Source: an uncultured bacterium (GTDB lineage Bacteria > Gemmatimonadota > Gemmatimonadetes > Longimicrobiales > Gaopeijiaceae). Taken from it: a DNA stretch of 64,000 nt. Positions 51,839-59,317 of this stretch are shown here, in pieces. A model generated the notes under the pieces. The model worked only from the letters and a program-made list of their open reading frames with translations, made no database searches and was not told the DNA's origin. Both the position numbers and the translations under genes were made by a program. The first letter of the stretch is position 1; each line of letters starts with the position of its first letter. The stretch is from NCBI GenBank assembly GCA_963935005.1, contig CAWWAX010000001.1, positions 52,572 through 116,571 of the forward strand, given 5' to 3'.

Positions 51839-52630
51839 TCAATCTATCCTCTCTGGCTCCATAACACGCTCCACCACTTCATCTCCGACCCGACTCACAT
51901 AATAGACTTTGGCATCAGCTCGAGTAGATACCACTCGTCTTACCTCATTATCTTCAAAGTAAATTCCCGCATCATTGTCACAAGCATACCCAGGCATCAA
52001 TTCGCCCGACTTGATGAGCCTCTCATAAAGAGGCCTGCGAGCCGCTTCGGCATCGTAATGAGGCGAATGACTTCCTTTGAGAAAACCCAGACATTCAATT
52101 TTTGTGACTTCTTTAGGCCTGGAATCAGTTGTTCCTTCTTCGAACCAACACAAAGAACCAGCACTAGCTCCTCCTAAGACAATTCCTCTGTCCCAAGCCT
52201 CTTTTAAAATCACATCGATCCCCTGAACCTTCCAAATCGCCTGTTGGTTGAGAGTGTTTCCTCCAGAAACCACTATCCCATCCATCGAGAGTAGGACATC
52301 TTCAAAACTTTGATCCATTCTATAACTACTTATAAAACTCTCTTGGACGAACGGGACAACGTTCAGATTAGCACAATTCTGAAACCAGCTGATGATTCCT
52401 GATGGACGGTCGGCAGACGCTGTAGGTAAGTAGCAAAGTCGTGGCCTTTCCTTGCCAGTAAGTTCAGCCATGTAACGAATAAAAGCTTCCCTGAAGCCAC
52501 CACCAGCGATAAGGATTTTCCTTCCTGCAGCTGCAGTCATCACCGGGTTGGCATCCCGAGAAACCAAATCTTCTGAGTTTAACGCGATAGAACTCAAAGC
52601 CGAAGAAACAATAAATTTCCTTCTCTTCAT
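51839..52630 (-). CDS. S51 peptidase (dipeptidase E / cyanophycinase-like), Tat-like signal
   Basis: It has the nucleophile context GGASAGS and the motif GGNT. The N-terminus is MKRRKFIVSSALSSIAL. The RBS is AGGAAGG. Confidence 0.75.
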   Translation of the reverse strand: MKRRKFIVSSALSSIALNSEDLVSRDANPVMTAAAGRKILIAGGGFREAFIRYMAELTGKERPRLCYLPTASADRPSGIISWFQNCANLNVVPFVQESFISSYRMDQSFEDVLLSMDGIVVSGGNTLNQQAIWKVQGIDVILKEAWDRGIVLGGASAGSLCWFEEGTTDSRPKEVTKIECLGFLKGSHSPHYDAEAARRPLYERLIKSGELMPGYACDNDAGIYFEDNEVRRVVSTRADAKVYYVSRVGDEVVERVMEPERID

Positions 52631-52730: not shown

Positions 52731-53516
52731 CTAGCCGTATCTGCCTTCTATATAGTCTGCCGTCCGCTGATGAATCGGATTCAGAAACAAATCTTCAGTA
52801 TTTTGTTTCTCTACCAAGTCCCCAAGTAACATGAAAGCAGATTCCGTACTCGCACGCCTAGCCTGAGCCATATTATGGGTGACTATCAGAATCGTATACT
52901 CTCCAGCTAAGGTCCAAATCATCTCCTCTAGAGCTTCTGTAGCCTTTGGATCCAATGCAGAAGTAGGCTCGTCCATTAGGATGACGGACGGCTTGAGTGG
53001 AATGAGGCGAGCTATGCAAAGTTTCTGCTGGGCCTCAAGAGAAAGTCCAATAGCTTGTCCATCTAACCGATCTTTCACATCATCCCACAATAGCACCGTT
53101 CTAAGTGAATCCTCTAGGATCTTCTCCTCTTCCCCCTTAGAGAGGTTCTTGCTTGACCCATGAATCCTATGGGCGAATAGGACATTGTCTCGAATAGACA
53201 GAGGTAGAGGATTGGGGCGCTGGAATACCATGCCCACCCGTTTCCTTAACTGTGACAAATCTACACTTTCATCTAAAACGTCATGGTCTAGGATACGGAT
53301 AGACCCTGAAATTCGCGTATAAGACCCTAATCGTTCGTTGATTCGGTTGATCGACCTGAGCAAGGTTGACTTTCCACATCCTGACGGACCTATAAGAGAA
53401 GTTACGGAGCCCTTCTTTACTTCCAAATCGACGTCAAAAAGAGCCTGGAAGTCCCCATACCAAAAACTTAATTTCTCCACTTGAATAGCAAATTCTGTAC
53501 TCTCCAGACTATCCAA
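52731..53516 (-). CDS. pstB: Phosphate ABC transporter ATPase, copy 2 (canonical Walker A/Q/B/H loops, degenerate signature LSLEA)
   Basis: It contains GPSGCGKST, VGMVFQRPNP, ILMDEPTSALDP and IVTHNM, and ends with the PstB-typical C-terminus DYIEGRYG. The signature motif reads LSLEAQQK instead of LSGGQQQR. Confidence 0.9.
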   Translation of the reverse strand: MDSLESTEFAIQVEKLSFWYGDFQALFDVDLEVKKGSVTSLIGPSGCGKSTLLRSINRINERLGSYTRISGSIRILDHDVLDESVDLSQLRKRVGMVFQRPNPLPLSIRDNVLFAHRIHGSSKNLSKGEEEKILEDSLRTVLLWDDVKDRLDGQAIGLSLEAQQKLCIARLIPLKPSVILMDEPTSALDPKATEALEEMIWTLAGEYTILIVTHNMAQARRASTESAFMLLGDLVEKQNTEDLFLNPIHQRTADYIEGRYG

Positions 53517-54273
53517 AACGACCCTCCACGTAATCCCGTGTACGCTGGTCTTCTACTGTGCCAGTGAAGAAGTTTTCCGTTTCACCTACTTCTACCAGTT
53601 CTCCTCCAAGAAAAAAAGCTGTTCTGTCAGCCAATCGCCTTACTTGCTGAACCAAGTTGGTCACCAAAACCACAGTCATCTCATCCTTCAATTCCTTTAA
53701 GACATCTTCAATTCGCATAGTCGTAACCGGATCCACAGCTATAGAAAATTCATCCAACAGAAGAAGCTCTGGGTCTTGAGAAAGTGCTCTAGCGATGGTG
53801 AGCCTCTGCTGTTGTCCACCCGAGAGCAAGCTACCCAGCTGGTATAACCGATCCTTAACTTCATCCCAGAGAGCGGCGCGTATCAAGCATCGCTCCACAA
53901 TGCCATCTAGCTGGTTCTTGTCTTTGACTCCGGAGAGCCGGGGAGAAAGCGCCACGTTCTCATAAACACTCAGTGGCAGTCCCACCGGCAGAGGAAAAAC
54001 AACTCCAATCCTCTTTCTAAGGGCATAAACATTTTGCGCCTGACTAACTTCCAGTCCGCCAAAGCGTATCGATCCTTGAACATCCATAGAATCCTTGAAC
54101 TCATCCATCCTATTTATAGCGTTGAGAAAACTCGTCTTCCCACTCCCCGCTGGGCCAATTATCCCAAATATCTCATTCTTCCGAATCTCTAGGTTATCGA
54201 TCCGAAGAGCGATGTCATCCTCATACCGGATGGTTAAATCACGAACCAAAAGCTCTATCGATGGATCTACCAT
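53509..54273 (-). CDS. pstB: Phosphate ABC transporter ATPase, copy 1 (canonical signature LSGGQ, degenerate Q-loop and H-loop)
   Basis: It contains GPAGSGKTS, LSGGQQQRLTIARAL and LLLLDEFSIAVDP, and ends DYVEGRFG. The Q-loop reads VVFPLP (Q to P) and the H-loop reads LVTNLV (H to N). Confidence 0.88.
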   Translation of the reverse strand: MVDPSIELLVRDLTIRYEDDIALRIDNLEIRKNEIFGIIGPAGSGKTSFLNAINRMDEFKDSMDVQGSIRFGGLEVSQAQNVYALRKRIGVVFPLPVGLPLSVYENVALSPRLSGVKDKNQLDGIVERCLIRAALWDEVKDRLYQLGSLLSGGQQQRLTIARALSQDPELLLLDEFSIAVDPVTTMRIEDVLKELKDEMTVVLVTNLVQQVRRLADRTAFFLGGELVEVGETENFFTGTVEDQRTRDYVEGRFG

Positions 54274-55136
54274 TTCTTCTGCCCTCTGACATACGATCGA
54301 AGGACTATGGAGGATGTATTCATGATCAAGACCATCGATACTAAGACCAAGGCTACACTATAAGGAAGCGTTTCTGGGACACCAGGAACCTGAGTAGAGA
54401 CGACGAAAAGATGTAGCGACATTGCCATGGTTTGGTCCAAAATACCCTGTGGAAGAAAAGGGAGGAAAAATGCTGCTCCCGTAAACATGATAGGTGCTGT
54501 TTCACCCGCAGTCCTGGAAACTTCAAGGATCACTCCAGTCAAAATCCCACTTATTGCATTGGGTAATACTACCTTCCGAATCGTCTGCCATCGGGTAGCA
54601 CCCATTCCCCAGCAAGCCATTCTAAATTCTGGAGGGACTGCCTGTAGCGACTCGCGAGTCGCTACAATGACCACAGGTAAGGTCATAATCCCTAAAGTGA
54701 GACTAGCAGCCAGGATACTAGTTCCGAATCCAGCAAAAATCACAAACGCCCCAAGTCCAAATAAAGCATGCACAATTGAAGGGACCCCTGCGAGATTGAT
54801 AATGGCCAAATTGATCAGTCGGGTTAACCAAGTGTCCGAAGCATATTCAGACAGATAGATTGCAGTTGCCACACCTAATGGTATCGAGAAGATCAGTGCG
54901 ACCACCACCAGCCAAATCGTACCCAAAAGGGCAGGGAATATTCCACCTGCAGTCATCCCATTGGTTGGTGCACTAAAAAGAAATTCAAACGAAATATTCG
55001 GGCCGCCTTTATAGATTAAGACAGTCAGGATAGTTAACACGGGCAAAGCTAACAGACAGGTTACCAATCCAAACAGAATAGATACCAACTTCTGCACACT
55101 GTGATTATGCCGATTTAGCTCGGTGGCCTCAAACAC
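54267..55136 (-). CDS. pstA: Phosphate ABC transporter permease PstA
   Basis: It has six TM segments and the EAA-loop-like ACWGMGATRWQTIRKVVLP. Its position follows pstC. Confidence 0.88.
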   Translation of the reverse strand: MFEATELNRHNHSVQKLVSILFGLVTCLLALPVLTILTVLIYKGGPNISFEFLFSAPTNGMTAGGIFPALLGTIWLVVVALIFSIPLGVATAIYLSEYASDTWLTRLINLAIINLAGVPSIVHALFGLGAFVIFAGFGTSILAASLTLGIMTLPVVIVATRESLQAVPPEFRMACWGMGATRWQTIRKVVLPNAISGILTGVILEVSRTAGETAPIMFTGAAFFLPFLPQGILDQTMAMSLHLFVVSTQVPGVPETLPYSVALVLVSMVLIMNTSSIVLRSYVRGQKKW

Positions 55137-56078
55137 TTAATTTCCCCTATTGCCTTTAACAACAATATCCGCGATCAGGTTGATTATGAAAGTGACAAGA
55201 AAAAGAAGTATTCCGAGTGTAAACAAAGCTCTGTAGTGCTCAGAACCAACAGCAGTTTCACCTAACTCTGCAGCGATTGTCGCTGTTAGAGCTCTCACCG
55301 AATCAAATGGACTAGTTGGCAGATTGATCGAATGACCGCTAGTCATCAGGACTGCCATAGTTTCTCCAAATCCTCTACCCACTCCCAATAAAATCGCCGC
55401 AACAAGCCCATTTTTTGCTGCTGGCAAAACCACTTGGAACGTTACCTGCCATTTTGTAGCACCCAGTGCCTCTGCCGCTTCTCTATAATGATCGGGCACA
55501 GCCTTGAGTGCATCCTCGGCAATAGTCGTCATAATTGGAGCAGCCATCAAAGCCAGAATGATTCCCGAATTGAGGATTCCCAAGCCCACTGGCACATCAA
55601 ATAGGTCTATGATCAAGGGATTCATCATCGAAAGTCCTATGAATCCCCAAACCACTGAAGGTATAGCAGCAAGGAGCTCAATTAGAACTTTTAGAACTTC
55701 TCGTACTCGACCAGATGCAAATTCGGAAATAAAAATCGCAGCACACAGTGAGAGGGGTACTGCCAGAAGCATCGCAAAACCTGTGACGCTAGCTGTTCCA
55801 ACTACCAAAGCCAATATCCCATAAGTAGGGTTCGATAGAGAAGTGGGTCTCCATGTTGGGGATAGAAGGAAATCCTTAAAGCTGAAAGATTCAAACAAAA
55901 AACTGAACCCTTCTTTAGTGATAAAAAAGAAAATACTGATGATTAAAAAAATGGCAGACACGCCTGCTATGAACATCAGCAACTCGAAGAACTTATCCCA
56001 ATACCAAGCACTGTCTCTCACATCCAGGTCTTGGCCCATTGACACTTTTTTGTCACTGTTCATTAAACTATTTAGCAT
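55137..56078 (-). CDS. pstC: Phosphate ABC transporter permease PstC
   Basis: It has TM segments and the EAA loop EAAEALGATKWQVTFQVVLPAA. Confidence 0.88.
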   Translation of the reverse strand: MLNSLMNSDKKVSMGQDLDVRDSAWYWDKFFELLMFIAGVSAIFLIISIFFFITKEGFSFLFESFSFKDFLLSPTWRPTSLSNPTYGILALVVGTASVTGFAMLLAVPLSLCAAIFISEFASGRVREVLKVLIELLAAIPSVVWGFIGLSMMNPLIIDLFDVPVGLGILNSGIILALMAAPIMTTIAEDALKAVPDHYREAAEALGATKWQVTFQVVLPAAKNGLVAAILLGVGRGFGETMAVLMTSGHSINLPTSPFDSVRALTATIAAELGETAVGSEHYRALFTLGILLFLVTFIINLIADIVVKGNRGN

Positions 56079-57150
56079 CCGTTCCGGCTAAAATTGTCAG
56101 TAACTTCTGGACGGAACCAGCAACATCCTGGTAAAAGCTCTCCATATCAGAAGCATCGGATCGCTTCCAGTGCAGAACTGTCGTCCTAAAAGGGACATCT
56201 CCTAGAAAATCGTCAGCCACACCCTCGTCTCCCGAAAAAACGACCACAACATGGAAATGGTTAGACAGTTCCGAAATAGGAATCAATTTTTTCGAACGTG
56301 CATGTCTAAGATCAAGGCCTTTGCCATCCATGAAATGGACTAGGTCTTCTTCTAGGTACTTGTCCTCTTCCACGTTCCATCCTGCACTCTCATAAACACC
56401 ACTCTCTGGAAACGCCTTGGCAGCATATTTTTCGGCTACATGAGCCTCGAAATTATGCTTTTCGTCTAAGAAAAGGATGCGGAAAACTCGCGGCTTGCGT
56501 TGTTCTCCTGAAAACGCAAAAACCGTTTGTTCAGAAAGATTTTCCGCTTGTTCTTCCATCCTCCTGAAAAGCATCAGCACCCTACTAAGACTGAGAACGT
56601 CTACCACACTAGTGTCGGCTGTCGATCCCAATTCCATCACCTCATTGAACACGAGACTTAGGGCATGGTCAGACCTTTCGGCGTGCCAATATGTCTCCCT
56701 GGCACTCTCTACGTCTCCCTGCCGAAAGGCTTGGATCGCTTTTTCTAAGGTGTACCGAGCCTGTTGCGCGATCATTTCAATTTGCTTGATAATTCTATCT
56801 GGAGGCACTGCCTCTATCCTCACAATCTGCCTCCCGATGGAACCCGCATAGTCACCGATCCTTTCCAGGGCAACCGAAAGGCGCAAAACGGCAGAGGCAT
56901 ATCGCAGGTGTTTACCACTCGGAGCATGTCTAACTACGAACGCATGCACCAATTCGTCAATTATTTCTATTTTCCGGTTTACACGACGATCGCCTAAAAC
57001 AACTTCATTAGCCCCTTCGAAGTCCCTATGAACAAACGAGTGTAAGACTTTCCCGATCTGTTCCAAAATTTCATCCGAAACCTGATCAATATGAGTCCCG
57101 ATCTCTTTTAGATCTGACTCTATACGTTCAGCATAATGTTGATGTTCCAT
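56068..57150 (-). CDS. phoU: PhoU-domain protein fused to a C-terminal ArsC/LMW-PTP-like domain lacking the CX5R P-loop
   Basis: The N-terminal ~220 aa carry the PhoU repeats (LERIGDYAGSI; the second repeat is degenerate, RRMEEQAENLSE). The C-terminal ~140 aa aligns by eye with ArsC/LMW-PTP: ILFLDEKHNFEAHVAE versus IxFxCxGNxCRSxxAE; VYESAG versus VYSAG; GLDLRHARSKKL; HVVVVF; LHWKRSD. Confidence 0.8.
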   Translation of the reverse strand: MEHQHYAERIESDLKEIGTHIDQVSDEILEQIGKVLHSFVHRDFEGANEVVLGDRRVNRKIEIIDELVHAFVVRHAPSGKHLRYASAVLRLSVALERIGDYAGSIGRQIVRIEAVPPDRIIKQIEMIAQQARYTLEKAIQAFRQGDVESARETYWHAERSDHALSLVFNEVMELGSTADTSVVDVLSLSRVLMLFRRMEEQAENLSEQTVFAFSGEQRKPRVFRILFLDEKHNFEAHVAEKYAAKAFPESGVYESAGWNVEEDKYLEEDLVHFMDGKGLDLRHARSKKLIPISELSNHFHVVVVFSGDEGVADDFLGDVPFRTTVLHWKRSDASDMESFYQDVAGSVQKLLTILAGTDAK

Positions 57151-57164
57151 CTCTCACAGCTCTC

Positions 57165-58028
57165 CTAAACGCAGACTACCGATGTCACCGGCGCATACCC
57201 TTTTCCTAGCAGAATACACTGGCCTTCTTCACCAAGAAGCCATTCCATATAAGCCCCCACTACCCCTTCAGCTTGACCAGCAGTGTACATGAACAGTGGT
57301 CTGGCAATCGGATACGTTCCGTCAATCGCTGTTCCAATGGACGGAGAAACGCACTCGGTCGATCCATCTGAAGTCACACAAGGCATGAATATTTCTTCAG
57401 TAGCATAGGCTAGTCCACTATAGCCGATGCCACAAGGAGTGTTGCCGACAAGATCCACGACTTCCGACGATCCATTCATATCCCTAGATCCCAGCCGAAA
57501 ATCTCTTTGTTCTCCCAGCACTGCTTCCTGAAAATATGCATACGTACCAGAATTATTCTGCCGACTTACTCGAACAATTTCCCCACTCGAGCAACCAGGA
57601 ACCTCGATACCCAACTGGCTCCAATTATCGAAATTTCCACCGTCCCCATAAATGTCACCCAGTTGGGCAAATGAAATCGACTTTATAGGATTGTTCGGAT
57701 GAAGAAAAATAGCCACTGCATCGAAGCCAACTGTGTGTTCTACCGGATCTACTCCATTGGAACGAGCTGCTTCAAGTTCTTCTTCCCTCATCCTCCGACT
57801 AGAATTAGCAATATCGACCGTCCCGTTTATCATTGCTGAAATTCCCGTCCCCGAGCCACCTCCTGTTACTGCAATCGCAACACTAGGATCCACCGATCCA
57901 TATTCCTCGGCCCATGCCTGCGCAACATTTACTAGCGTATCAGACCCTTTATTCTCAATTAAAATTCTGTCCGAGTTTCCCCCACACGCCAATACAAATA
58001 CCAGTGTAAATAAAGACCTTTTCATCAT
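57165..58028 (-). CDS. pstS: Phosphate-binding lipoprotein PstS (PBP-like_2 family)
   Basis: It has the lipobox VFVLAC, then GSDTLVNVAQAWAEEY and TGGGSGTG. It is the first gene of the pst operon. The start is ATG 58028; the track ORF extends to 58088. Confidence 0.88.
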   Translation of the reverse strand: MMKRSLFTLVFVLACGGNSDRILIENKGSDTLVNVAQAWAEEYGSVDPSVAIAVTGGGSGTGISAMINGTVDIANSSRRMREEELEAARSNGVDPVEHTVGFDAVAIFLHPNNPIKSISFAQLGDIYGDGGNFDNWSQLGIEVPGCSSGEIVRVSRQNNSGTYAYFQEAVLGEQRDFRLGSRDMNGSSEVVDLVGNTPCGIGYSGLAYATEEIFMPCVTSDGSTECVSPSIGTAIDGTYPIARPLFMYTAGQAEGVVGAYMEWLLGEEGQCILLGKGYAPVTSVVCV

Positions 58029-58066
58029 CTTTCTTTCTCTTGCATCTAAGAATAAACATGAGTCAC

Positions 58067-58083
58067 TACTTTGTGAAAAAAAG
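58067..58083 (-). promoter_or_regulatory. 17-nt motif CTTTTTTTCACAAAGTA (read on minus strand) upstream of pstS
   Basis: It is a perfect reverse-complement copy of 58135-58151 and lies 39 nt upstream of the pstS ATG. Confidence 0.5.
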
Positions 58084-58134
58084 TACAATCCTTATGCAAA
58101 AAAAGCAACATCAGATGTCACTCGATCTCTTGTG

Positions 58135-58151
58135 CTTTTTTTCACAAAGTA
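58135..58151 (+). promoter_or_regulatory. 17-nt motif CTTTTTTTCACAAAGTA upstream of the divergent porin gene
   Basis: It lies 57 nt upstream of the porin ATG at 58208. A TATACT -10-like hexamer sits at 58169-58174. Confidence 0.5.
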
Positions 58152-58207: not shown

Positions 58208-59317
58208 ATGGGAAATGAAATGCTAACAAAAAAAGTTCTCTGGAGAACACTCCTACTGACCAGCGGCATATTCTGTGGTCTTGGATCTTCTCCGCTAATG
58301 GCTCAAGTCACCCTGAAAAGCCGAGCCTCAGAACTTACTATTACGGGACGAACCCACACCCAATTCAACACCACTTCAGTAGATGATGAAATGGGATCAG
58401 AGTTCCTTCTCCGCCGCACCCGTCTCACTGCAGAAGTCACAGTGAGCGATTTAGTTTCGGGAAAAGTTCAGCCCGATTTTGGTGCAGGAACAATTTCTCT
58501 AAAAGACGCTTACCTCAGACTGTCATTTAGTCCATCATTCCGTATAACATCAGGTCAATTCAAGCGAGCTTTCGACATTTTCGAATTGACGAGCTCCACA
58601 CAAACTCTGGTTATCGAAAGAGCTGGCGATATACGGGGGATTGGCACATGCTCGGGGACTGGAAATCTTTGTTCCTACAGTAGATTTACAGAAAGCCTAG
58701 AGTACTCAGACCGTGACATTGGAATAGCCGTCGATGGTTCGCTTTCAACGACCAACGCGAACTACTCGGTCGCTATCACAAACGGTTCCGGTGCCAATAC
58801 AAAAGAGACCTCTGGAGCAAAATCTTTTTCAGGTCGCTTAGAATTCCCTGTTTCAGGGAAGTTCACCCTATCACCCAACTTCAGCGTTCACGATTACCTA
58901 AACTCTGTATTTAGCCAGGACAGACATGGAGTTGCCTGGGGAGCCGACTTAGAATGGGGTAGCCATGAAACCCTGGGTGTGCACCTGAAGGGTGGTATCA
59001 TCTTCGGTGATAATTGGAAGAATCTCGATGTCGAAGGGAAGCCTAGTAGCTTCAAATCATTTCAGTCTATATTGGCTTATAGACGATCTACCCCAAACAA
59101 TGCTTTGGTAGAATTCGTCGAGCCTCTGGTTCGTGTCAGTTGGGGTGACCCCGACAGAAGTGTCTCTAACGATGGTGGGATGCTGACCACTTTTGGCGTT
59201 GTTACCCATTTTGTGGGCCGCAATAAGATCGCTGTAAACGTAGACACCTGGAATCCTGCCCTCGGGTCACTACCTACCGAGTTCTCTTTAAAAATCCAGT
59301 CTTACTTCCATTTCTGA
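58208..59317 (+). CDS. Outer-membrane porin, probably phosphate-selective (OprO/OprP-like)
   Basis: It has a signal peptide (...SSPLMAQ), a beta-barrel pattern and C-terminal ...QSYFHF. It is divergent from pstS. Anion/phosphate selectivity is inferred from context only. Confidence 0.65.
   Translation: MGNEMLTKKVLWRTLLLTSGIFCGLGSSPLMAQVTLKSRASELTITGRTHTQFNTTSVDDEMGSEFLLRRTRLTAEVTVSDLVSGKVQPDFGAGTISLKDAYLRLSFSPSFRITSGQFKRAFDIFELTSSTQTLVIERAGDIRGIGTCSGTGNLCSYSRFTESLEYSDRDIGIAVDGSLSTTNANYSVAITNGSGANTKETSGAKSFSGRLEFPVSGKFTLSPNFSVHDYLNSVFSQDRHGVAWGADLEWGSHETLGVHLKGGIIFGDNWKNLDVEGKPSSFKSFQSILAYRRSTPNNALVEFVEPLVRVSWGDPDRSVSNDGGMLTTFGVVTHFVGRNKIAVNVDTWNPALGSLPTEFSLKIQSYFHF

What the first reader, a model, noticed from the sequence alone, without database searches (positions are those of the whole stretch)
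52731..54273. Two tandem PstB ATPases with complementary motif degeneration: predicted one consensus and one degenerate ATP site in a phosphate importer
Seen in sequence: both ORFs are clearly PstB-like, including the C-terminal DY(I/V)EGR(Y/F)G. Copy 1 (53509-54273) keeps Walker A and a canonical LSGGQQQR signature, but its Q-loop Gln is Pro (VVFPLP versus VFQKP) and its H-loop His is Asn (LVTNLV versus VTHNM). Copy 2 (52731-53516) keeps Walker A, Q-loop, Walker B and H-loop (IVTHNM), but its signature is LSLEAQQK. Established knowledge: each ABC ATP site is built from Walker A/B, Q and H loops of one NBD plus the signature motif of the partner. Inference: a copy1/copy2 heterodimer would have one fully canonical site (copy 2 loops plus copy 1 LSGGQ) and one site degenerate on both faces. 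This is the asymmetric architecture known from heterodimeric exporters. I am not aware of it being described for Pst importers; duplicated pstB genes such as B. subtilis pstBA/pstBB exist.
Basis: partly seen in the sequence, partly recalled or inferred. Interest (0 to 1): 0.62.

Follow-up and report, generated by a model that had tools for sequence, protein, structure and literature searches.

The report
Phosphate importer with one dead ATP site
This marine bacterium's only high-affinity phosphate pump is driven by two different ATPase subunits whose altered motifs all fall into the same one of the two ATP pockets; many bacterial phyla share this design, which is known from drug exporters, and I found no paper describing it for phosphate uptake.

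Summary
pstB1 (53509-54273, minus) keeps Walker A/B and LSGGQQQR, but its Q-loop Gln is Pro and its H-loop His is Asn. pstB2 (52731-53516) is canonical except for the signature, LSLEAQQK. Ungapped alignment to the solved E. coli PstB confirms the positions.

This is a conserved module. In 49 of 49 related loci from 9 or more phyla, a type-1 gene is followed directly by a type-2 gene with the same changes. The 69 ordinary PstBs I compared, including B. subtilis PstBA/PstBB, are all canonical at these positions.

Each type is one clade. The two trees mirror each other, and both types diverge at the same rate. Less-diverged relatives join the same two clades, which points to one origin and stepwise decay of a single composite site.

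In six closed genomes the pair is the only PstB. Metatranscriptome contigs cover both genes.

The most likely reading is an obligate B1/B2 heterodimer. It would have one catalytic site (B2 loops plus the B1 signature) and one non-catalytic site that may still bind nucleotide. The module also carries a PhoU fused to a dead ArsC/LMW-phosphatase domain, and a changed PstA coupling helix.

I found no paper describing this. It is a new variant of a known kind. Other agents of this scan have flagged the same design in other genomes.

The parts
53509..54273 (-). pstB1, the type-1 ('Q/H-less') ATPase subunit, 254 aa. Walker A GPAGSGKTS (nt 54130-54156). Q-loop position is Pro94 (VFPLPVG, 53980-54000). 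Canonical signature LSGGQQQR (53803-53826). Walker B LLLDEF (53746-53763). D-loop SIAVD (53731-53745). H-loop position is Asn206 (LVTNLV, 53650-53667). Overlaps pstA by 7 nt.
   Evidence: Clade-specific invariant changes. 120 of 120 best database homologues share VxPLP and VTNL.
52731..53516 (-). pstB2, the type-2 ATPase subunit, 261 aa. Canonical Walker A (53364-53390), Q-loop Q99 (53208-53228), Walker B (52965-52982) and H-loop H214 (52869-52886). The signature is LSLEAQQK (53022-53045). It has a TTG start that overlaps the pstB1 stop by 8 nt, with GGAGGG upstream.
   Evidence: Invariant G160L, G161E and R165K in the clade.
54267..55136 (-). pstA permease. The coupling-helix (EAA) motif reads FRMACWGMGATRWQ (54585-54626). 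The Cys-Trp pair is specific to operons with the asymmetric PstB pair.
   Evidence: TIGR00974 at 253.9 bits, above its cut-off. EACW in 48 of 48 related loci, and in none of the ordinary PstA EAA loops that my pattern recovered.
55137..56078 (-). pstC permease. EAA motif YREAAEALGATKWQ (55446-55487).
   Evidence: TIGR02138 at 277.7 bits, above its cut-off..
56068..57150 (-). PhoU fused to a C-terminal domain with the ArsC(pI258)/LMW-phosphatase fold. The CX5R phosphate-binding loop of that domain is replaced (ILFLDEKHNFEAH, 56440-56478). The gene lies between pstS and pstC.
   Evidence: Pfam PhoU. AlphaFold model with pLDDT 88. Foldseek: PhoU 4q25 TMt 0.94 and ArsC 1jf8 TMt 0.78. The fusion is conserved in related loci and absent from 47 PhoU genes next to ordinary PstBs.
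57165..58088 (-). pstS phosphate-binding protein. The true start is probably the ATG at 58028, giving MMKRSLF....
   Evidence: TIGR02136 at 207.9 bits, above its cut-off of 206.6. Pfam PBP_like_2..
58067..58151 (.). 22-nt inverted repeat (95% complementary, arms 58067-58088 and 58130-58151) in the divergent pstS/porin control region. It is a candidate operator.
58208..59317 (+). Outer-membrane porin of the phosphate-selective OprO/OprP kind, transcribed divergently from the pst operon.
   Evidence: Pfam Porin_O_P, E = 3.5e-10.

Best explanation
The six-gene operon pstS - phoU::ArsC-like - pstC - pstA - pstB1 - pstB2 encodes a high-affinity phosphate ABC importer. Its two nucleotide-binding subunits are different proteins that work as an obligate PstB1/PstB2 heterodimer.

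ABC ATPase domains dimerise head to tail. Each ATP site is therefore built from the Walker A/B, Q-loop and H-loop of one subunit and the signature motif of the other.

- Site 1 (PstB2 loops plus the PstB1 LSGGQ signature) is fully canonical. It should bind and hydrolyse ATP and drive the transport cycle.
- Site 2 lacks the Q-loop Gln (Pro94) and the H-loop His (Asn206) on the PstB1 side. On the PstB2 side it faces LSLE in place of LSGG. It should not hydrolyse ATP.

PstB1 keeps the A-loop Tyr, the Walker A Lys/Thr and the Walker B Asp-Glu. Site 2 therefore probably still binds a nucleotide and serves as a structural or regulatory hinge, as in heterodimeric exporters. That would give about one ATP per cycle.

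Shown here: the motif states, their strict pairing, the co-evolution of the two genes, a single origin, sole-PstB status in closed genomes, and in situ RNA-derived contigs.

Inferred: the heterodimer itself, the lack of hydrolysis at site 2, nucleotide occupancy, and stoichiometry.
For: 1. Motifs were verified against the solved E. coli PstB.
2. In 49 of 49 related loci (19, 30), type 1 is followed immediately by type 2 with the same motif states. The phyla include Pseudomonadota (including Accumulibacter), Planctomycetota, Acidobacteriota, Myxococcota, Verrucomicrobiota, Poribacteria and Binatota, plus the window's Gemmatimonadota.
3. Each type forms one clade with 100% SH-aLRT support on a long stem, and the internal topologies mirror each other.
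4. Mean pairwise identity is 0.653 for both types, with r=0.86 between them, so B1 is not decaying.
5. The substituted residues are themselves invariant: P94, V97, G98, F176, I178, N206 and L207 in B1; L160, E161 and K165 in B2. All 69 ordinary PstBs have Q, GG and H.
6. Less-diverged pairs join the same two clades. L059 has Q to A with LSLGQ in the partner. L121 has Q to A and H to N with LSAEQ in the partner. The clade support is 99% for the Q-less side and 83-92% for the partner side, so successive changes hit the same composite site.
7. The genes overlap by 8 nt and an RBS precedes the TTG start, which implies coupled translation.
8. The pair is the only PstB in five closed genomes of the window's family and in a closed Thermoanaerobaculia chromosome. 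No other PstB was found in the window's own MAG.
9. Metatranscriptome contigs at 99% or higher identity cover both pstB genes and the rest of the operon.
10. In E. coli, a signature mutation (Q160K) or a catalytic-Glu mutation (E179Q) in PstB abolishes transport (PMC5775613), so these motifs matter in this family.
11. One intact site can suffice in an importer (HisQMP2, cited in PMC3971661).
Against: There is no biochemical or structural evidence for the heterodimer, and the tools could not model a two-chain complex.

PstB1 keeps the catalytic Glu, unlike many exporter degenerate sites, so some residual hydrolysis at site 2 is not excluded.

Most type-1 proteins also deviate in Walker A (GPANSGKT in place of GxxGxGKT). 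Together with the Glu in the partner's signature, this could mean that site 2 binds no nucleotide at all.

The PstB1 D-loop, which reaches into the consensus site, is also altered (IAVD), so site 1 is not strictly canonical in every element.

The RNA evidence is short contigs from metatranscriptomes, where DNA carry-over is possible.
Confidence: 0.8

Rival explanations
1. PstB2 homodimers are the real motor, with the LSLE signature still functional. PstB1 is an accessory or regulatory paralogue that is not part of the transporting complex. This would resemble E. faecalis, where PstB2 is required, PstB1 is accessory, and excess PstB2 can replace PstB1.
For: E. faecalis genetics show unequal roles for tandem PstBs (PMC12096839). 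PstB2 keeps every catalytic loop.
Against: A B2 homodimer would carry LSLE at both sites. The two Gly residues are 100% conserved in 69 ordinary PstBs, and an E. coli signature mutant is transport-dead (PMC5775613). PstB1's LSGGQQQR is invariant in 50 of 50 loci, which makes sense only if it completes a working site with PstB2. The genes are translationally coupled, always adjacent, and evolve at equal rates. The Firmicute pairs are canonical in both copies and lie elsewhere in the tree.
Confidence: 0.07
2. PstB1 is a decaying duplicate on its way to becoming a pseudogene, and the complementary pattern is coincidental.
For: It has lost two catalytic residues and scores below the PstB equivalog cut-off.
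Against: The frame is intact in all 50 loci. Identity across phyla is 56-78%. Its rate of change equals that of PstB2. The replaced residues are invariant. There are thousands of homologues at 74% identity or more. RNA-derived contigs cover it. The earliest-branching relatives already show the paired pattern.
Confidence: 0.01
3. The operon imports a different oxyanion (phosphite, arsenate, thiophosphate or similar), and the NBD changes reflect a different transport job and not an asymmetric Pst.
For: The module has its own PstS subtype, which only just passes TIGR02136. It also carries a PhoU fused to an ArsC-like domain and altered coupling helices.
Against: PstC and PstA pass the PstC and PstA equivalog cut-offs. 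An OprO/P-type porin is adjacent. In six closed genomes this is the only PstB-type system. The ArsC-like domain lacks its catalytic Cys and Arg. This rival concerns the substrate and would not remove the site asymmetry.
Confidence: 0.05

Closest known systems
E. coli PstSCAB (PDB 9k3s, 9k3x, 9k3y; PMC12976172)
   Same: It has the same transporter family and subunit set: PstS, PstC, PstA and two PstB, one docked on PstA and one on PstC through coupling helices. B2 scores 240.7 bits and B1 201.1 bits against E. coli PstB over the full length, including the C-terminal DYxxGRxG tail.
   Different: E. coli uses a PstB homodimer with two identical canonical sites. Here there are two diverged subunits (38-39% identical) with one canonical and one degenerate site. 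phoU is internal to the operon and fused to an extra domain, and the PstA coupling helix carries Cys-Trp.
Heterodimeric ABC exporters with one degenerate site (TM287/288, TmrAB, BmrCD, PatAB, TAP1/2, CFTR; reviews PMC7756269 and PMC3971661)
   Same: The logic is the same. Catalytic-loop changes in one ATPase domain and signature changes in the partner fall into one composite site. The other site stays consensus, and the nucleotide-binding residues of the degenerate site are kept.
   Different: Those are type IV exporters whose ATPase domain is fused to the membrane domain. Their typical change is Walker B Glu to Asp or Ser. Here the system is a binding-protein-dependent type I importer with free ATPase subunits. 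The catalytic Glu is retained, and the Q-loop Gln (to Pro) and H-loop His (to Asn) are lost.
Tandem PstB paralogues of Firmicutes (B. subtilis PstBA/PstBB; E. faecalis PstB1/PstB2, PMC12096839)
   Same: Two adjacent pstB genes sit at the end of a pst operon, and in E. faecalis their roles are not equivalent.
   Different: All four motifs are canonical in both Firmicute copies (PMC12096839). The copies are about 60% identical and lie in other parts of the PstB tree. They are a separate duplication.
Importers with fused double ATPase domains and one degenerate site (RbsA and NupO of B. subtilis, PMC11466899)
   Same: They are importers in which one of the two ATP sites is predicted to be incompetent.
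   Different: Those have two ATPase domains fused in one polypeptide, belong to a different transporter class and substrate, and the degenerate half lacks the Walker A Lys. Here there are two separate subunits and the Walker A Lys is kept.

Membership tests
PstB, phosphate ABC transporter ATP-binding protein (NCBIfam TIGR00972 equivalog) | Whole-protein HMM score at or above the curated cut-off of 343.2 bits | tested here: not met
   B1 scores 276.3 bits and B2 scores 312.4 bits. PstB is still the best family for both, with full-length coverage. No genome of the window's family reaches the cut-off either.
PstB, phosphate ABC transporter ATP-binding protein (NCBIfam TIGR00972 equivalog) | Operon context with pstS, pstC and pstA, and the PstB-specific C-terminal tail DYxxGR(F/Y)G | tested here: met
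   pstS, pstC and pstA pass their own cut-offs and lie directly upstream. The tails read DYVEGRFG and DYIEGRYG.
PstB, phosphate ABC transporter ATP-binding protein (NCBIfam TIGR00972 equivalog) | Full set of catalytic motifs in each subunit (Q-loop Gln, LSGGQ, H-loop His), as in 69 of 69 ordinary PstBs | tested here: not met
   B1 lacks the Gln and the His. B2 lacks the two Gly of the signature.
ABC transporter nucleotide-binding domain (Pfam PF00005) | Pfam gathering score, Walker A GxxxxGK[ST] and Walker B hhhhDE | tested here: met
   Scores are 84.5 and 90.7 bits against a cut-off of 25. Walker A and Walker B are present in both subunits.
ABC transporters with asymmetric ATPase heterodimers (one consensus site, one degenerate site) | Two different ATPase polypeptides whose non-consensus residues map to the same composite site | tested here: met
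   This follows from sequence and the established head-to-tail dimer geometry. The B1 Q and H loops and the B2 signature form one site. The B2 loops and the B1 signature form the other.
ABC transporters with asymmetric ATPase heterodimers (one consensus site, one degenerate site) | Physical heterodimer on the membrane subunits | not testable with these tools
   Only single chains can be modelled here. The indirect support is strict adjacency, coupled translation and mirrored trees.
ABC transporters with asymmetric ATPase heterodimers (one consensus site, one degenerate site) | The degenerate site binds ATP but does not hydrolyse it | not testable with these tools
   The A-loop Tyr, Walker A Lys/Thr and Walker B Asp are conserved in type 1, which fits binding. 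Hydrolysis has not been tested.
Firmicute tandem PstBA/PstBB pair | Membership of the same duplication clade, with both copies canonical | tested here: not met
   B. subtilis (L064) and other Bacillota pairs are canonical in both copies and fall in other clades.
PhoU (TIGR02135 / Pfam PF01895) for the gene at 56068-57150 | PhoU fold and family score | tested here: inconclusive
   The Pfam PhoU domain passes (65 bits against 23.5). The fold matches PhoU 4q25 at TMt 0.94. TIGR02135 scores 99.5 bits, below its cut-off of 130.25. The protein carries an extra ArsC-like domain.

The most novel reading that the evidence does not exclude
The degenerate site may be a purpose-built regulatory pocket and not just a dead ATP site. 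Its replaced residues are invariant across more than nine phyla: Pro94, Val97, Gly98, Phe176, Ile178, Asn206 and Leu207 in B1, and Leu160, Glu161 and Lys165 in B2. It co-occurs with a PhoU fused to a phosphate-loop-less ArsC/LMW-phosphatase domain and with a re-tooled PstA coupling helix (ACW). Together these could form a built-in sensor or brake. The pocket might hold a nucleotide permanently, be closed by the signature Glu without nucleotide, or read cytoplasmic phosphate or energy status. Its output would gate the single catalytic site and feed Pho signalling. If so, this would be a natural type I importer that runs on one ATP per cycle with allosteric control.
Probability: 0.25. Interest if true: 0.8.

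Novelty: new variant of a known kind. Interest (0 to 1): 0.62.

Why it matters
How many ATP molecules an ABC importer needs per cycle, and whether the two sites act alternately or together, has been argued for decades. The arguments rest mostly on engineered half-dead mutants of the histidine and maltose permeases. This module is a natural type I importer that appears to have fixed one dead site, and it is under strong selection. It occurred in roughly one in ten of the sampled species genomes of Gemmatimonadota, Planctomycetota and Acidobacteriota. It also occurs in the polyphosphate accumulator Accumulibacter. In several closed genomes it is the only Pst system.

It gives a direct experimental handle on three things: stoichiometry, allosteric cross-talk between sites in an importer, and the link between PstB conformation and PhoU/Pho signalling.

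There is also a practical consequence. Both subunits fall below the curated PstB cut-off, so automated annotation labels them generically, and phosphate-uptake capacity in these environmentally abundant lineages may be under-called.

Tried and rejected
1. Shifted-motif artefact: rejected. The alignments to solved E. coli PstB have no gaps around the motifs.
2. Assembly artefact: rejected. More than 15 runs, from about ten studies, hold at least 0.89 of the sampled words, and hundreds of homologues share the states.
3. Same duplication as Firmicute PstBA/PstBB: rejected by motifs and by the tree.
4. Independent convergent origins of the other odd PstBs seen among cluster representatives (VFAxP with VTNN; LSLGQ, LSAEQ, LTEEQ): not supported. 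They join the same two clades. Support on the partner side is only 83-92% SH-aLRT from a quick search.
5. Pfam scan of the PhoU C-terminal 142 aa found nothing. Structure prediction plus Foldseek was needed to identify it.
I obtained genome handles first.
7. Encoding contigs for P0143 and P0126 were too short to show the partner's signature. The contig for P0153 was long enough.
8. Literature searches for PstB with degenerate, consensus-site or heterodimer terms, and for the literal motif strings, found nothing relevant. The library lacks most subscription-journal papers, so absence is not proof.
9. I could not assign which of PstA or PstC docks PstB1. The Cys-Trp coupling helix of PstA and the smaller residues after the PstB1 Q-loop position suggest PstA-B1, but this is a guess.
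10. I did not compute dN/dS and did not model PstB1 alone. Neither would settle the heterodimer question.
Full report
**What is in the window**

On the minus strand lies a tightly packed operon:
- pstS, 57165-58088
- a 360-aa PhoU-like gene, 56068-57150
- pstC, 55137-56078
- pstA, 54267-55136
- pstB1, 53509-54273
- pstB2, 52731-53516

Neighbouring genes abut or overlap by 7-11 nt, except pstS and the PhoU-like gene, which lie 14 nt apart. pstB2 starts at a TTG that overlaps the pstB1 stop by 8 nt, and GGAGGG lies just upstream. A porin of the phosphate-selective OprO/P kind is transcribed divergently.

PstC, PstA and PstS pass their NCBIfam cut-offs. Both PstB copies hit PstB (TIGR00972) best and over their full length, but below the curated cut-off (276.3 and 312.4 bits against 343.2). 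The two copies are 39% identical.

**Checking the observation**

Alignments to the solved E. coli PstB (PDB 9k3x) have no gaps around the motifs.
- In PstB1 the Q-loop Gln is Pro94 (VFPLPVG against VFQKPTP). The H-loop His is Asn206 (VTNLV against VTHNM).
- PstB1 keeps Walker A (GPAGSGKTS), the A-loop Tyr, Walker B with the catalytic Glu (LLLDEF) and the signature LSGGQQQR.
- PstB1 also has an altered D-loop (SIAVD for SALD) and Phe in place of Pro after the catalytic Glu.
- PstB2 is canonical everywhere except the signature, which reads LSLEAQQK for LSGGQQQR.

**Not a one-off**

The best 120 database homologues of PstB1 (74-99% identical) all carry VxPLP and VTNL. They are labelled as Gemmatimonadota, Longimicrobiales and even a Sedimenticola.

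A scan of one genome per prokaryote species returned 19 loci with PstB1 relatives at 56-76% identity. They come from Gamma- and Betaproteobacteria (including Accumulibacter and Chromatiaceae), Planctomycetota, Myxococcota, Acidobacteriota, Poribacteria, Binatota and Verrucomicrobiota.
- In all 19, the type-1 gene is followed at once by a type-2 gene.
- In the 18 whose partner gene is complete, the type-2 signature reads L[SQAL]LE.QQK with canonical catalytic loops. In L012 the partner is cut off by the contig end. The type-1 gene has Pro at the Q position, Asn at the H position and an invariant LSGGQQQR.
- Thirty further loci sampled from Acidobacteriota gave the same result, 30 of 30.

By contrast, 69 ordinary PstBs from the same scan are 100% Q, GG and H at these columns. 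These include the tandem pairs of B. subtilis and other Bacillota.

**Prevalence**

Hits to PstB1 at type-1 strength (E at or below 1e-78, i.e. well above the score of ordinary PstBs) were found in evenly sampled species genomes as follows:
- 23 of 201 Gemmatimonadota, 22 of them in the window's own family
- 22 of 251 Planctomycetota
- 40 of 301 Acidobacteriota

**Evolution**

In a maximum-likelihood tree of 111 PstBs, type 1 and type 2 are each one clade with 100% SH-aLRT support on long stems. Their internal branching mirrors each other.

Among the 19 genomes with both genes complete (18 loci plus the window), mean pairwise identity is 0.653 for both types, and the two sets of distances correlate at r=0.86. 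The 'defective' subunit is as constrained as its partner.

The substituted residues are themselves invariant. In type 1 these are S42A, Q94P, N97V, P98G, F99L, P176F, S178I, H206N, N207L and M208V. In type 2 they are G160L, G161E and R165K.

A search of cluster representatives revealed less-diverged relatives.
- An Anaerolineae pair has Q to A but keeps the His, with a partner signature of LSLGQQQR (L059).
- A metagenomic pair has Q to A and H to N, with a partner signature of LSAEQQQR (L121).

In a second tree, all Q-less PstBs form one clade (28 rows, 99% support). All signature-degenerate partners form another (24 rows at 83%; the inner 22 at 92%). The simplest reading is one ancient duplication followed by stepwise loss of catalytic elements, every one of them in the same composite ATP site.

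**Is it used?**

In five closed genomes of the window's family, and in a closed Thermoanaerobaculia chromosome, the pair is the only PstB-type gene. The window's own MAG (85% complete) has no other PstB either. Accumulibacter, a gammaproteobacterial MAG and Limisphaera also carry a canonical PstB elsewhere.

Near-identical DNA is present in many independent seawater metagenomes. Short contigs from four marine metatranscriptomes match pstB2, pstB1, pstA, pstC, the PhoU gene and pstS at 99% identity or more. DNA carry-over cannot be excluded for these.

**Mechanism**

Established knowledge is that ABC ATPase domains dimerise head to tail. Each site then uses the Walker A/B, Q-loop and H-loop of one subunit and the signature of the other (reviewed in PMC3971661 and PMC7756269). 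In E. coli PstSCAB, one PstB sits on PstA and one on PstC (PMC12976172).

It follows that neither a B1 nor a B2 homodimer has a complete site. A B1/B2 heterodimer has exactly one complete site: the B2 loops plus the B1 LSGGQ. E. coli PstB with a signature mutation (Q160K) or a catalytic-Glu mutation (E179Q) does not transport (PMC5775613), so these motifs are not dispensable in this family. One intact site was enough in the histidine permease (Nikaido and Ames 1999, as cited in PMC3971661).

I therefore consider an obligate heterodimer with one catalytic and one non-catalytic site the best explanation, at about 0.8. The conserved A-loop Tyr, Walker A Lys and Walker B Asp of B1 suggest that the dead site still binds nucleotide. 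That point, and the expected one ATP per cycle, are inferences.

**Other features of the module**

1. The PhoU gene is internal to the operon. It is fused to a roughly 140-aa C-terminal domain that Pfam does not recognise. An AlphaFold model (pLDDT 88) matches PhoU (4q25, TMt 0.94). The C-terminal part matches pI258-type ArsC and LMW phosphatases (1jf8, TMt 0.78). The CX5R loop is replaced by DEKHNFE, so it is a pseudo-enzyme. The long PhoU (353-376 aa) is present in 13 of the 19 related loci, and its C-terminal domain is detectable by sequence in 9 of them. The C-terminal domain was not detected in any of 47 PhoU genes next to ordinary PstBs.
2. The PstA coupling helix reads EACW in 48 of 48 related loci and MACW in the window. 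No ordinary PstA loop that my pattern recovered has Cys-Trp there. PstC reads EAAEA in the main subgroup. This asymmetric re-tooling of the two docking helices fits two different ATPase partners. Which permease takes which partner remains open.

**Comparison with what is known**

The logic is that of heterodimeric exporters with a degenerate site, such as TM287/288, TmrAB, BmrCD, TAP and CFTR. Here, however, the system is a binding-protein-dependent type I importer with free ATPase subunits. The residue pattern also differs: Gln to Pro and His to Asn, with the catalytic Glu kept.

Firmicute PstB1/PstB2 pairs are a separate duplication with all motifs canonical (PMC12096839). Degenerate sites in importers have been noted for the fused double ATPases RbsA and NupO (PMC11466899).

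I found no paper on degenerate PstB in the searchable library. Other agents of this scan reported the same design in other genomes. Those notes are not independent evidence, but everything they state that I re-tested held.

**Verdict**

This is a new variant of a known kind. Interest is about 0.6. It is a solid, widespread and apparently undescribed natural asymmetric importer that makes the ATP-stoichiometry question directly testable. Its biochemistry is still entirely inferred.

Noticed in passing
window 56068-57150 (minus): PhoU is fused to a C-terminal domain with the ArsC(pI258)/LMW-phosphatase fold. The catalytic Cys-X5-Arg loop of that domain is replaced (ILFLDEKHNFEAH), so it is a pseudo-enzyme. 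The gene lies between pstS and pstC. The fusion is specific to operons with the asymmetric PstB pair.
   Followed up: yes
window 54585-54626 (pstA) and 55446-55487 (pstC): The coupling-helix (EAA) motifs are re-tooled asymmetrically. PstA reads (E/M)ACW in 49 of 49 operons of this type, where ordinary PstA has EA[SA][YL]. PstC reads EAAEA in the main subgroup. In the window's PstA even the EAA Glu is replaced by Met.
   Followed up: partly
window 58067-58088 and 58130-58151: A 22-nt inverted repeat (95% complementary, TACTTTGTGAAAAAAAGTACAA) lies between the divergent pstS and OprO/P-like porin genes. It is a candidate shared operator. The left arm overlaps the longest pstS ORF, so pstS probably starts at the ATG at 58028.
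   Followed up: partly
L059:3305-5533 (Anaerolineae MAG) and L121:1802-3203 (metagenome contig): These are less-diverged asymmetric PstB pairs. L059 has Q to A with the His kept, and LSLGQQQR in the partner. L121 has Q to A and H to N, and LSAEQQQR in the partner. They look like intermediate stages of the same degeneration series.
   Followed up: yes
L022:5600-7268 (Poribacteria MAG): Downstream of the asymmetric pair lie a weak PstA-like ORF and a third, very divergent PstB-like ATPase (VFRKPIP, LSIGQQQL, FATNKR) on a long branch. Its role is unknown.
   Followed up: no
window 53509-54273; type-1 homologues generally: Most type-1 proteins have GPA(N/Q)SGKT in Walker A. The second Gly of the ABC consensus GxxGxGK[ST] is lost. 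The window's own clade has regained or kept Gly (GPAGSGKT; 88 of the 120 closest homologues).
   Followed up: partly
window 51839-52630 (minus): A peptidase S51 (cyanophycinase/dipeptidase E family) gene lies 100 nt downstream of pstB2 on the same strand. I did not test whether it belongs to the operon.
   Followed up: no
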